A stretch of DNA of 64,000 nt from Trypanosoma brucei (Eukaryota): NCBI GenBank assembly GCA_000002445.1, contig CH464491.1:5088001-5152000 (forward strand). The letters are read 5' to 3'. Of this stretch, positions 18,001-21,000 are shown piece by piece (positions within the stretch are counted from its first letter, which is position 1; every line of letters starts with the position of its first letter). A program made the position numbers.

Positions 18001-21000
18001 GCGAATTTTTGTTTACTAGAATAGAGGAATCCTTGCATTCTTTTCCATCCTATTTGCAATCAGTAGCCTTGGTGCATTCTTTTTGCTCTTTCCCTTTACA
18101 TTTCTCCTCTTTCTTTTCTTCCGCCTTCACTCCCTCTTTGAGGTTGCATTTTCCTTCTTTGTGTTCGCAATCTTTTTCCTCTTTGCATTTAGTTGCTTCA
18201 GTGTCTGGCTTGCATTTTTCTGTAGTTTTTGATTCTGCAGTGGTCTTAGGTTTAGCTTGTTGTTGTCTGCTGTTTTCTTTCCAGAAAACAACTGCTATTG
18301 CTTCCCCAAAATTTGCAGTGTTAGAGACCCCTACTATGTCTGGGTCGGCGTTTGTGGAGCCCACATTGTACGTTATTTTGTCATCTTTTAAGGGTTCAAT
18401 GAACTCCTTGTTGATATCGGTTGTATTTGGTCCGTATACTGCCGTTATTGCGGCTGTCCAGTCCGCGTCCGCTGCCGTTTCAGGTACCGATCCTTTCGTG
18501 AGCAGGAAAGCTATCTTCGCTGCCGGTGCCCCTTTGGCTATTTGTTTGCGCGTCAGACTTGTTGCTTTCGCCTCTTGTTTTATTAGGACTTTTTTGGCTT
18601 TACAGACCTTGTTTAACAGCGTTTTGTCTGTAATTACTAGTTTAAGCGGCTGTTTGTCGACGAAGCAGGCCGGGTCGTCCGGCCCTGTCTTTCCTAGCGC
18701 CTGTTTGGCTGGCACCTTTATTGCCGCCGGGGCTGCACTTGGTTTTGCGCCTACGCCGTTTACCACTGACGCTGGCGTTGTTGAGCTGGCTCCACAGTAT
18801 CCGGCTCCCTTAGGGCCGTTTGTACTGACGCTGCCGGCGGTTCCTTGCATGTGGATGTCAAAAGAAAGCTGCATGGGTTGGGGTTCAGTGTTTGGCGTTA
18901 GTGCTAGGTGTTTTAGTTCCCCTAACTCGGCGCTGAGCTTGTCTATGGCATCCTTGTAAGCTGCCATATTGTCGCATACGTCGTCTGTTTCCCCCGTTGT
19001 TGCATAGGTGGCGACACATTTTCCTTCCGCTGCTCCGTCGGCGCTTAGCCATTGTGCGCCCGTGCCTGTCCATTGGGCCTTGGCGGTTGCTTGGATCGCT
19101 TTCGTGGGACCAGTGAGCAGCTGCCCTAATACGCCGTTCCGTTTCTGCAGCGCTTCAATTGCCTCCTGTAGCGTCCGTGCTTTTCCTTTCAATGCAGCTT
19201 GTTGCCTGATCGCCGCGTCTGCTGCTATTGAGCTGAGGGCTGTGTACAGCATCTTCGCCTGCTTGTCGGTTGCTGCTGTCGCCGCGAGAAAAAACATGCG
19301 CGTCTCAGTGTTGAGGTCCGAAAGACGCTGCCGCGATTCTTGGATATTGGTACTGAAGTGTTCTGCCAGTTTCTTGTTAAAATAGATTTCGGCGCATGTG
19401 CTGGTGACCGCCGCTAAGCTTCCGTGGTCCGTTGATTGCGCAGTGGCGAGTGTACCCAGAAACACCACCAGTATGGCAGCGATTCTTCTTGCTAGTTCGT
19501 GCATCTGCATTCGCCTCCTCATTTTGTGTTTAACTTGAGTTAGGATGGATCAAATGGGACATTCAAGTTGTGTCCGTATTGTTCCGGACACATGGGAACG
19601 TTGGTCTAATCAATGTGATTTGCGTGGCGCATAGTTACACAATCCAAACACAAAACAATATCTTCCCATTTCTACCTGCCCGTTCTATACCCTTTATCAT
19701 AAACTATTCTCTCTTTATCAAATACTCTCGATTGCCCATACAGCTTCGTTTACTTCACCATAGAAATATCTTTCCCAGTGGTCTTCGATTTAAGCACTAG
19801 TTTCTCAGTGTGTAAAGCTGTTTTTGTCATCTACAACTGATTAAAGTGCAGCTTCCTTTCAGTTAACTTATATGCTGTTCCCCTTTCCACTTGCAGTTCA
19901 TGCGCTATTCCTGAAGCTACTCTTGCAGTTAGTTACGCTCTGTAGATTATTTTTTTTTTGAATTCACTGTGTGTGCATATAGTAGTTTTGTTGTGTTTTT
20001 TGAATGCTATTGGACGCATTTTTGTATGACTTTTTTCTTCAATGTGCATATTAATGGGCGAAAATTTTACAATACACTAGCTAAGAGGAGGAAATGCGTA
20101 TATGCACACCATATCACATGGAATGATAGTCCGGAACTCAGCCCTGGAGAACGAGGCACTAACCACTAAAACCCTCTTAGGTGGAGGTTATTGCCTACCC
20201 ACATCGACAGTGGCTTGTGACAAAGAGTCGCACGGTGGTCTAAAAAGACGGCCTCCTTTTCGGCCTGCTACTCCGCCTATAGCTTCTGTGGCATCTAACC
20301 CTGCGAAGTCAGCCGCTAGCTGTAAAGCTAGTGGCGCGTATGCGACTTTGATTGACTCCCTTTGAACAGGGTCCTTAACTGCGAAACATGAAGTAGCCAC
20401 TTTTTCTCGGAATGATTTGCGCTACACATACATAAATATCTTCAACGTCCAAAAGTACACTTGCCCTGGCGCCACAGACATCACTCACTGTAACTGATAT
20501 GCCAGTGTTCGTGTGGTAACAGTTAGTTTCCCCTGAAAATTTTAATTCTTCCTGGGTGCTAGACCCTGACACCACGATGAGGCTGCTAACACTAACATCA
20601 CATAATATGCTTTACTTTGAGTAGCTTCAGTGTTTTCATTCTTCTTTTTCTATACACGGTAATTCATTTGTAGTCTCATGTTTAAAATAATACTCATAGT
20701 ATTATTTTGTTTGGCGAAAATATTGGTATTTATTATTATATCTGATGAGTAAAAGAATTTTATATTACTTACTACACTTACGTAATTCCTTCTTTCTGCT
20801 CCTGCATCTACTACTTCTTCACGGCTAGGTATTAGGTTCCACCATCTCATTAAAAACATATTTATCAACATTTATAAAATAGAATCTATCACTTTGTGAG
20901 TAAAATGTGAAGTACATTATCTTTATGTATTATTTTCTTCTTTTGTGTGCTGTTTTTTATTCTGCCATTTCACCATGTTTTTCCCCTAATTTTTTGCGTA

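What the first reader, a model, noticed from the sequence alone, without database searches (positions are those of the whole stretch)
18040..18060. TGG to TAG nonsense exactly at Trp of the conserved CKW(D/E)GKECK block in an otherwise full-length VSG
The 490-aa ORF has an intact signal peptide and N-terminal domain. It terminates …TDCK-TAG-DGKECKDSSILVNKNSP*. The stop replaces the invariant Trp, and the downstream hydrophobic GPI tail is also missing. The N-terminal domain would be usable only as a donor for segmental (mosaic) gene conversion.
Basis: seen in the sequence. Interest (0 to 1): 0.55.

Follow-up and report, generated by a model that had tools for sequence, protein, structure and literature searches.

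The report
Ordinary trypanosome VSG pseudogene, broken tail
This is one of the many silent surface-coat (VSG) pseudogenes in a Trypanosoma brucei subtelomeric gene array: the antigenic N-terminal part is intact, but the membrane-anchoring tail is disabled by a stop codon, a one-base deletion and further decay, which is a common and well-described state.

Summary
On the minus strand, a 490-codon ORF (19522..18053) ends at a TAG (18052..18050) where intact relatives have the conserved Trp of the CKW(D/E)xxxCK block. The window is T. brucei brucei TREU927 chromosome 11, a one-strand array of about 16 VSG genes and pseudogenes.

The stop is not the only lesion. The GPI signal is not deleted. It survives one frame over, after a 1-nt deletion in an A-run, as KFALMVSEFTMIEVF* with two Glu in the hydrophobic stretch. 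The 3'UTR 16-mer has three mismatches.

The stop is not a sequencing error. Lister 427 VSG 1059 (82% identical, also 490 aa) ends at the same residue.

A second, unrelated VSG in the window (40670..42265) carries an independent TAG at the same Trp.

The gene keeps two perfect 70-bp-repeat cores upstream and about 200 nt of CTD-coding homology before the stop. It could therefore supply its N-terminal domain by "3' donation" gene conversion, a route described by Hall et al. 2013. That use is inferred, not shown.

Verdict: an ordinary member of a known class, of low interest. Recurrence of the stop at this Trp is a minor curiosity.

The parts
21258..21440 (-). 70-bp repeats upstream of the gene. 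There are two ~81-nt units plus a partial one, with perfect 30-nt cores at 21261-21290 and 21342-21371. They lie about 1.74 kb 5' of the ATG.
   Evidence: Direct-repeat family D2, 96% identity, spacing 81. The core pattern GTGTTGTGAGTGTGTGTATACGAATATTAT gives 8 matches in the window against 0 expected, and these two are the only ones with 0 mismatches. Their role as the 5' boundary of VSG gene conversion is established knowledge.
18053..19522 (-). Open part of the VSG gene, 490 codons. It has a signal peptide (about aa 1-28), an A-type N-terminal domain (to about aa 425), then the C-terminal domain: the first 4-Cys region S1 complete and the second, S2, up to its third Cys.
   Evidence: ORF list and translation. 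82% identity over 100% of its length to T. brucei VSG 1059, and 75% to two further VSGs. phmmer match to VSGsur 6z79, E=4.6e-16, residues 7-477.
18146..18214 (-). CTD structured region S1 (Cys437, 446, 452, 459: CKPDTEATKCKEEKDCEHKEGKC). It is intact and upstream of the stop, so it is a candidate 3' crossover zone.
   Evidence: 55-70% identical to the same region of many VSGs that end in complete NTTGSNSFVI... GPI signals. The definition of a CTD structured region comes from PMC12226131.
18035..18100 (-). CTD structured region S2 (CKGKEQKECTKATDCK-stop-DGKEC). It is interrupted between its third and fourth Cys.
   Evidence: Translation. Alignment with the CKW blocks of vsg_28392 and vsg_49947.
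18050..18052 (-). TAG nonsense codon in place of the conserved Trp (TGG) of the S2 CKW block.
   Evidence: Sequence. TGG at the aligned position in two window paralogues. W at this place in P0016, P0028, P0029 and P0030. VSG 1059 and VSG 1078 end at the same residue.
18006..18010 (-). A-run carrying a 1-nt deletion (AAC AAA AA- TTC against AAC AAG AAA TTC). It throws the GPI signal out of frame.
   Evidence: Alignment with the intact tail of the VSG at 45798. Frame comparison.
17996..17998 (-). Second in-frame stop (TGA), reached in the original frame because of the deletion.
   Evidence: Translation ...ILVNKNSP*.
17961..18005 (-). Remnant of the hydrophobic part of the GPI signal, in the shifted frame: FALMVSEFTMIEVF plus its own TAA (17963-17961). 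It has two Glu, and its mean hydropathy is 1.59 against 2.24-2.53 in intact tails.
   Evidence: After conceptual repair, the CTD matches Pfam Trypan_glycop_C at E=8.4e-14 (52.3 bits, cut-off 21.4). The CTD as encoded gives no match.
17893..17908 (-). Degenerate copy of the VSG 3'UTR 16-mer: TGCTGCATTTTAACAC against TGATATATTTTAACAC, 3 mismatches.
   Evidence: Pattern search gives 12 matches in the window against 1.4 expected. The intact VSGs at 45798 and 60490 have 0 mismatches. The 16-mer consensus and its role in VSG mRNA stability are from my own knowledge of the literature.

Best explanation
This is a silent, array-resident VSG pseudogene of T. brucei brucei TREU927, in the chromosome 11 subtelomere. 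Its signal peptide and A-type (VSGsur-like) N-terminal domain are open.

Its C-terminal domain has decayed in four ways:
- a G>A transition turned the conserved Trp codon of the second 4-Cys region into TAG;
- a 1-nt deletion in an A-run shifted the GPI signal out of frame;
- the hydrophobic tail picked up two Glu;
- the 3'UTR 16-mer drifted.

The encoded product lacks a GPI-attachment signal and one disulphide partner, so the gene cannot supply a coat protein by itself.

It still has both things a donor needs: well-preserved 70-bp repeats about 1.7 kb upstream, and about 200 nt of conserved CTD-coding sequence (S1 and the start of S2) upstream of the stop. The likely way its information gets used is duplicative gene conversion into an active expression site. 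The conversion would start in the 70-bp repeats and end inside the CTD 5' of position 18052, so the resident CTD, GPI signal and 3'UTR are kept ('3' donation').

Shown here: the anatomy, the lesions, the homology, the age of the stop and the genomic context. Inferred from the literature: that this particular gene is ever used as a donor.
For: Identity and source.
- Neighbouring ORFs 45801-47378 and 60493-62010 are exact matches to TREU927 proteins XP_829789.1 and XP_829791.1, on a 5,261,801-bp record.
- The focal product is absent from the protein collections, as expected for an annotated pseudogene.

VSG homology.
-.

Lesions.
- TAG; frameshift and decayed tail; 16-mer with 3 mismatches.
- Restoring the Trp and one A restores a Trypan_glycop_C match, E=8.4e-14.

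The stop is real and not recent.
- Lister 427 VSG 1059 is 490 aa, aligns without gaps and ends at the same ...ATDCK.

Donor anatomy.
- 70-bp repeats.
- S1 is shared at 55-70% with many intact VSGs.

Context.
- About 16 VSG units lie on one strand, most of them fragmented.

Literature.
- Two-thirds of array VSGs are pseudogenes (PMC3467770).
- Half of the genomic homologues of expressed field VSGs keep an intact NTD, although 27 of 28 are incomplete ORFs, and identity usually ends in the CTD (PMC1934917).
- 3' donation was seen in 57% of expressed sequences and rescues genes with damaged CTDs (PMC3708902).

Family history of segmental exchange.
- Focal against VSG 1059: 5% aa divergence in columns 1-105, 31% in 106-315, 6% in 316-425 (chi-square p=6e-6).
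Against: - No expression data were examined, so donor use of this gene is unproven. It could simply be decaying.
- Pfam's A-type model PF00913 does not detect the N-terminal domain.
- The AlphaFold model was unusable (pLDDT 29.6), so NTD integrity rests on sequence homology and an open frame only.
- The stop codon of VSG 1059 is known only from where the protein ends, not from its DNA.
Confidence: 0.88

Rival explanations
1. The TAG is a sequencing or assembly error, and the gene is really an intact VSG.
For: A single base (18051) separates TAG from TGG. Subtelomeric arrays are hard to assemble (general knowledge).
Against: - An independently sequenced relative from another strain, VSG 1059 of Lister 427, ends at exactly the same residue.
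- The downstream sequence carries further independent lesions: a 1-nt deletion, two Glu in the tail, and a 16-mer with 3 mismatches. Correcting the TAG alone would still not give a GPI signal.
Confidence: 0.02
2. Nonsense at this Trp is not a random hit. The codon is a mutational hot spot, or a stop-bearing CTD module spreads through the archive by gene conversion. It might even be favoured, because it delays use of the attached N-terminal domain in the expression hierarchy.
For: - 2 of 4 CKW-type CTDs in the window carry TAG at this codon, against a 1-3% (ORF) or 4-13% (CTD) share of the nonsense target.
- VSG 1078 (P0004) has an unrelated N-terminal domain (33% identity over 55% of the query) but the same S2 variant, and it ends at the same residue.
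- P0002 and P0003 end one residue later (CKL).
Against: - TGG is the only codon that reaches a stop by either of two transitions, so some recurrence is expected.
- The two window cases differ in the codons on both sides of the TAG (AAA-TAG-GAT against AAG-TAG-GAA). The orthologues of vsg_40670 in T. equiperdum and EATRO1125 do not share its stop. These look like independent hits, not a spreading module.
- Protein databases keep only long ORFs, which favours very late stops.
- The sample is small and post hoc.
Confidence: 0.07
3. It is a dead-end relic that is never used. The N-terminal domain is open only because the lesions are recent.
For: - The flanks and CTD shared with VSG 1059 differ by only 5-12% aa. 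Only about one further nonsense mutation would be expected since their common ancestor, so an open NTD needs no selection.
Against: - This differs from the best explanation only in whether the gene is used, not in what it is.
- The recombination substrates are well kept: two perfect 70-bp cores, the best in the window.
- Pseudogene N-terminal domains are commonly expressed through 3' donation.
Confidence: 0.3
4. The truncated 490-aa protein is itself functional, as a secreted or non-GPI VSG-related protein.
For: - The ORF is long, with a signal peptide.
- The reference annotation treats the similarly truncated vsg_40670 as 'VSG, putative' (P0025).
Against: - It lies in a silent one-strand VSG array, with 70-bp repeats and no sign of another context.
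- The truncation leaves S2 with an unpaired Cys and no anchor signal.
- The sequence after the stop is plainly a decaying VSG tail.
- Close relatives carry other CTD lesions: P0002 and P0003 have Cys>Tyr changes and end one residue later, at CKL. More distant VSGs with the same CTD architecture are also broken: P0014 by a frameshift through the CKW block, P0016 by loss of its tail.
Confidence: 0.02

Closest known systems
T. brucei Lister 427 VSG 1059 (GenBank AGH60000.1, UniProt M4TAN8), from the Lister 427 VSGnome
   Same: 82% aa identity over the full length, gapless, 490 aa, with the same last residues ...ATDCK, so a stop at the same Trp position. Very probably the other strain's counterpart of this gene.
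   Different: The central 210 residues differ by 31%, against 5-6% in the flanks. This points to a segmental replacement in one of the two. Its DNA, stop codon identity and downstream tail could not be examined.
The VSG at 40670..42265 in the same window (P0025, annotated 'VSG, putative', TREU927)
   Same: TAG at the same conserved Trp of a CKW block (APDCK*EGNKCKDS).
   Different: It has a B-type N-terminal domain (Pfam VSG_B). The codons flanking the TAG differ. Its tail is still in frame but degenerate. Its orthologues in other strains lack this stop, so this is an independent event.
VSGsur (PDB 6Z79/6Z7A), an A-type VSG of T. brucei
   Same: The only solved structure detectably homologous by sequence (E=4.6e-16, residues 7-477), with aligned N-terminal Cys residues.
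   Different: About 25% identity. VSGsur is a complete, expressed, GPI-anchored VSG.
Pseudogene donors rescued by '3' donation' (Hall, Wang & Barry 2013, PMC3708902)
   Same: Array VSGs with a damaged CTD-coding region, whose N-terminal domain is expressed joined to the previously expressed CTD. Homology at the boundary was >85% over 13-143 bp. The focal gene has the required anatomy.
   Different: Expression of this particular gene has not been shown here.
Silent antigen cassettes of other pathogens, such as Anaplasma msp2 pseudogenes (named in PMC3467770) and Neisseria pilS and Borrelia vls cassettes (my own knowledge)
   Same: Non-expressible copies that serve only as templates for gene conversion into an expression locus.
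   Different: Unrelated proteins and recombination machinery. Those cassettes are usually truncated at both ends, whereas this gene is full-length with a start codon and a signal peptide.

Membership tests
T. brucei variant surface glycoprotein (VSG) gene family | N-terminal signal peptide followed by an A- or B-type N-terminal domain with conserved Cys residues | tested here: met
   - Hydrophobic N-terminus IAAILVVFLGTLATA.
- 82%, 75% and 75% identity to named VSGs, with Cys43, 169, 183, 243 and 286 invariant.
- VSGsur at E=4.6e-16.
- Pfam PF00913 (A-type) gave no hit, so membership rests on pairwise homology, not on the Pfam model.
T. brucei variant surface glycoprotein (VSG) gene family | C-terminal domain with one or two structured regions, each with four Cys and a conserved aromatic residue (PMC12226131) | tested here: inconclusive
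   S1 is complete. S2 is cut by TAG at the aromatic residue, with its fourth Cys after the stop. Pfam Trypan_glycop_C is matched only after conceptual repair (E=8.4e-14); the CTD as encoded gives no hit.
T. brucei variant surface glycoprotein (VSG) gene family | Subtelomeric array context with upstream 70-bp repeats and the conserved 3'UTR 16-mer | tested here: met
   - Two perfect 70-bp cores at 21261-21371.
- A 16-mer-like element with 3 mismatches at 17893-17908.
- About 16 VSG units on the same strand.
- TREU927 chromosome-sized record.
Intact (functional) VSG gene | Uninterrupted ORF through the CTD to a C-terminal GPI-anchor signal: an omega site plus a 17- or 23-residue hydrophobic extension | tested here: not met
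   TAG at 18052-18050. 1-nt deletion at 18006-18010. The tail remnant has two Glu and lower hydropathy than intact tails.
Full-length VSG pseudogene (the class in the TREU927 genome analysis: in-frame stops and/or frameshifts) | Recognisable over the whole VSG length but interrupted by an in-frame stop and/or a frameshift | tested here: met
   All VSG parts are recognisable from the ATG to the tail's own TAA, with one nonsense codon and one frameshift. The product is absent from the protein sets that hold its intact neighbours. The class description is in PMC3467770.
Donor for 3' donation or segmental gene conversion | Open N-terminal domain, plus upstream 70-bp repeats, plus CTD homology 5' of the lesion | tested here: met
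Donor for 3' donation or segmental gene conversion | Observed in expressed VSG mRNA joined to a foreign CTD | not testable with these tools
   No VSG-seq or cDNA collection is reachable. No paper in the library mentions VSG 1059.

The most novel reading that the evidence does not exclude
Nonsense at the conserved CTD Trp might be a recurrent lesion, driven by a hot spot or by conversion, that marks a sizeable subset of archive VSGs in several strains.

Such a stop would work as a 3' 'lock'. The attached N-terminal domain could reach the surface only through a crossover in the short stretch of CTD homology upstream of the stop. That would place these genes later in the expression hierarchy.

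Not excluded by the evidence:
- 2 of 4 CKW-type CTDs in this window, and three database VSGs (VSG 1059, VSG 1078 and P0025), end at this residue.
- Every VSG found with the S1+S2(CKW) architecture of the focal gene was CTD-defective.
Probability: 0.06. Interest if true: 0.45.

Novelty: already known. Interest (0 to 1): 0.1.

Why it matters
It matters little as a discovery. The window is from the T. brucei TREU927 reference genome. VSG pseudogenes with an intact N-terminal domain and a damaged C-terminal domain are a described, numerous class, and their rescue by 3' donation is published.

The case is a clean textbook example of 'implicit' antigen information: a gene that cannot be expressed as it stands but keeps everything needed to donate its antigenic half.

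Two modest by-products may interest specialists:
- Independent TAG hits on the same Trp codon in two unrelated VSGs within 23 kb.
- A clear mosaic divergence pattern (5% / 31% / 6%) between this gene and its Lister 427 counterpart, which shows segmental exchange within the silent archive.

Tried and rejected
- **Structure.** An AlphaFold2 model from the 4-sequence family alignment had pLDDT 29.6 and pTM 0.16. It was unusable, so no fold search was run.
- **Exact-product look-ups.** The look-up of encoding contigs found nothing on record for the focal product or for P0007.
- **Repaired-CTD homologue search.** The third homologue search, with the conceptually repaired CTD, found only one candidate sharing words with the query, and it did not score. 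The intended census of intact against truncated S1+S2 CTDs could not be made.
- **Exhaustive search with the CTD.** It gave 17 hits, most matching S1 only.
- **Bacterial promoter/terminator scan**. Irrelevant for a trypanosome and disregarded.
- **Papers not held.** Cross et al. 2014 (VSGnome) and Marcello & Barry 2007 are not in the library. No paper mentions VSG 1059.
- **Selection on the N-terminal domain.** I considered that its open frame showed selection: 4-5 extra nonsense mutations would be expected for 86 missense differences, P about 0.01. I rejected this as stated, because the differences are concentrated in a central block that looks like a segmental replacement. The flanks that share the stop differ by only 5-6%.
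- **Shared origin of the two TAGs.** I considered that the two TAGs in the window came from one conversion tract, and rejected it. The codons on both sides differ, and the orthologues of vsg_40670 lack the stop.
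Full report
**Observation.** The finding is on the minus strand. ORF 19522..18050 is 490 codons from an ATG. The end reads TGC AAA TAG GAT GGA AAA GAA TGC AAG GAT TCC TCT ATT CTA GTA AAC AAA AAT TCG CCC TGA. The TAG occupies 18052..18050. I aligned the DNA with the other three C-terminal domains in the window that carry the same block. Two of them have TGG opposite the TAG (AAGTGGGAT and CAATGGGAA against AAATAGGAT), so the change is a single G>A transition. Database VSGs P0016, P0028, P0029 and P0030 have DCKWE at this place. A 2025 structure-function paper describes each structured region of a VSG C-terminal domain as having four conserved Cys and a conserved aromatic residue (PMC12226131). 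The stop falls on that aromatic residue, between the third and fourth Cys of the second region.

**Source.** Two intact neighbours are exact matches to proteins of T. brucei brucei TREU927 on a 5,261,801-bp record: 45801-47378 is XP_829789.1 and 60493-62010 is XP_829791.1. By its size and the EAN806xx accessions, I take this record to be chromosome 11. The focal product is not in the protein collections. That fits a gene annotated as a pseudogene in the reference. The window is a one-strand array of about 16 VSG units. A few are intact and most are broken into several frames. It also holds an ingi-like reverse-transcriptase ORF on the other strand.

**What the gene is.** The closest relatives are named T. 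brucei VSGs:
- VSG 1059: 82% identity, 100% coverage, 490 aa.
- VSG 1125.4267 and A0A1V0FXZ4: 75% identity each.
- VSG 1078: 33% identity over 55% of the query.

The four family members align almost without gaps, and the N-terminal Cys residues are invariant. The only solved structure with detectable sequence homology is VSGsur (6Z79, E=4.6e-16, residues 7-477). The N-terminal domain is therefore an A-type one. Pfam's A-type model misses it. An AlphaFold model built from the shallow family alignment was unusable (pLDDT 29.6), so the integrity of the N-terminal domain rests on the open frame and on sequence homology.

**More than one lesion.** It is missing from the frame, not from the DNA.
- Immediately after the A-run at 18010..18006, the next frame reads KFALMVSEFTMIEVF followed by TAA (18005..17961).
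- The intact VSG at 45798 has AAC AAG AAA TTC GCC CT where the focal gene has AAC AAA AA- TTC GCC CT. This is a 1-nt deletion.
- The remnant has two Glu inside what should be an uncharged hydrophobic stretch. Its mean hydropathy is 1.59, against 2.24-2.53 for intact tails.
- The 3'UTR 16-mer is present with three mismatches at 17908..17893, while the intact genes in the window have perfect copies.
- If the Trp and the lost A are restored on paper, the C-terminal domain matches Pfam Trypan_glycop_C at E=8.4e-14. As encoded it matches nothing.

The gene is therefore not 'otherwise full-length'. A reversion at 18051 would not rescue it.

**Not an error, and not recent.** VSG 1059 was sequenced independently in another strain and ends at the same ...ATDCK. 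Together with the additional downstream lesions, this makes a base-calling error very unlikely. I also asked whether the open N-terminal domain implies selection. If all 86 amino-acid differences from VSG 1059 had accumulated neutrally after a shared stop, 4-5 further nonsense mutations would be expected (P(0) about 0.01). But the differences are very unevenly spread:
- 5% in columns 1-105;
- 31% in columns 106-315;
- 6% in columns 316-425;
- 12% in the C-terminal domain (chi-square p=6e-6).

In the central block, the focal gene is equally far from all three relatives. The simplest reading is that the centre of one gene was replaced from a more distant family member. The flanks, which carry the stop, then share recent ancestry, and only about one extra nonsense mutation would be expected in them. 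No selection needs to be invoked. The pattern is itself evidence of segmental exchange within the silent archive.

**Is a stop at this Trp more than chance?** The codon is 1.0-2.7% of the single-step nonsense target of the ORF and 4-13% of that of the C-terminal domain, depending on transition bias. Yet a second, unrelated VSG in the window (40670..42265, B-type N-terminal domain) also has TAG at the same Trp: APDCK*EGNKCKDS. It is annotated in TREU927 as 'VSG, putative', 473 aa (P0025).
- The codons on both sides of its TAG differ from the focal ones.
- Its T. equiperdum orthologue has a different lesion.
- Its EATRO1125 orthologue has a different, complete C-terminal domain.

The two stops are therefore independent. 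VSG 1078, which has an unrelated N-terminal domain, shares the focal S2 variant and ends at the same residue. P0002 and P0003 end one residue later. TGG is the only codon that becomes a stop by either of two transitions. Protein databases also retain only long ORFs, which favours very late stops. I regard the recurrence as a small, unproven curiosity.

**How it most likely works.** Upstream, at 21258..21440, lie two ~81-nt 70-bp-type repeats. Their 30-nt cores are the only perfect matches to the core pattern in the window. [quoted passage not shown] S1 is 55-70% identical at protein level to the same region of many complete VSGs.
- Hall, Wang and Barry (PMC3708902) showed that 57% of expressed VSG sequences in mouse infections had undergone '3' donation' and that 42% of N-terminal-domain donors were pseudogenes. 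[quoted passage not shown] Local homology at the boundary was >85% over 13-143 bp.
- Hutchinson et al. (PMC1934917) found that identity between expressed field VSGs and their genomic homologues usually ends in the C-terminal domain. They also found that half of those homologues keep an open N-terminal domain, although 27 of 28 are incomplete genes.
- Barry et al. (PMC3467770) state that about two-thirds of array VSGs are pseudogenes.

The best-supported mechanism is therefore this: the gene is silent and cannot make a coat protein. Its N-terminal domain can be copied into an expression site by a conversion that runs from the 70-bp repeats to a crossover in the C-terminal-domain coding region upstream of 18052. 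The resident tail and 3'UTR are retained. The anatomy is shown here. The use of this gene as a donor is inferred.

**Comparison and novelty.** The gene belongs to the VSG family by homology and context. It fails the test for an intact VSG because it lacks an in-frame GPI signal. It fits the described class of full-length VSG pseudogenes. Functionally it resembles the silent cassettes of other antigenically variable pathogens. Nothing here departs from what is known, and the sequence comes from a reference genome whose VSG archive has been catalogued. I rate it 'already known', interest 0.1.

The most novel reading that the evidence leaves open is that stops at this Trp are a recurrent, perhaps conversion-spread 'lock' that affects the order of VSG expression. 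I give that about 6% probability and moderate interest if true.

**Dead ends.** These are listed under Tried and rejected: the failed structure model, the empty look-ups, the failed third homologue search, two key papers not held, and an irrelevant bacterial promoter scan.

Noticed in passing
window 40670-42265 (-), stop at about 40672-40670: A second VSG (B-type N-terminal domain, Pfam VSG_B) has TAG at the same conserved Trp: APDCK*EGNKCKDS. The reference annotates it as a 473-aa 'VSG, putative' (P0025), not as a pseudogene. The T. equiperdum orthologue (P0026, 86%) has a frameshift instead. The EATRO1125 orthologue (P0027, 70%) has a different, complete CTD.
   Followed up: yes
window 49947-51398 (-) and readthrough to about 49850: This VSG keeps the Trp but has stops two and four codons later (CKWD*K*CKDS), another stop just upstream (KKD*TVNCKW), and a disrupted tail.
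   Followed up: partly
It reads CQWEGKECKESS (Glu instead of Asp before SS) and has a hydrophobic tail of only 10 residues (FFIFAIPFVS*).
   Followed up: partly
focal ORF against P0001 (alignment A2, columns 106-315): The divergence pattern is mosaic: 5-6% aa difference in the flanks and 31% in the central 210 residues, which are equally distant from all family members. P0002 and P0003 show the opposite pattern, 20-24% in the NTD but 5% in the CTD. This is evidence of segmental exchange among silent archive genes.
   Followed up: yes
P0002, P0003, P0004, P0014, P0016 (database VSGs): Every database VSG found with the focal S1 + EEKKEEKC + S2(CKW) architecture has a defective CTD: a stop at Trp, CKL-stop with Cys>Tyr changes, a frameshift through the CKW block (the P0014 C-terminus matches window 18084-18019 in another frame), or loss of the tail (P0016). 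No intact example was seen, but the sample is small.
   Followed up: partly
window 62225-63340 (-) and 47546-48652 (-): A duplicated pair of ORFs (about 173 + 195-198 aa, near-identical starts FKFEVEIFKTTNPYIMKADDDIFMR) lies immediately upstream of the two intact VSGs (60490-62010 and 45798-47378). Those two VSGs also share CTD S1 sequence, which suggests a segmental duplication. There were no Pfam hits. The DDD motif recalls the glycosyltransferase pseudogenes common in VSG arrays (from memory, untested).
   Followed up: partly
window 54860-57400 (+) and 24000-28000 (+): An 846-aa ORF with RVT_1 and RNase H domains is an ingi-type retroelement on the strand opposite to the VSGs. A degenerate reverse-transcriptase-like fragment (26292-26618, ...FMGYARAFDSVDHRRV...) lies in a 4-kb stretch with reversed AT skew.
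   Followed up: partly
window 18053-19522, 8117-9595, 15407-16621, 31758-32990 (all -): Four VSG ORFs without a VSG_B match get no hit at all from Pfam's A-type VSG model PF00913, even at E<=10. The fragment at 1959-2549 does hit it (E=5.7e-28). The Pfam model misses part of A-type diversity, including the VSGsur-like family.
   Followed up: partly
window 17560-17740 (-): A long (TAA)n/(ATT)n tract and a 70-bp-repeat-like sequence lie directly 3' of the focal gene's UTR. They belong to the next VSG unit downstream (15407-16621), whose N-terminus is disrupted.
   Followed up: no
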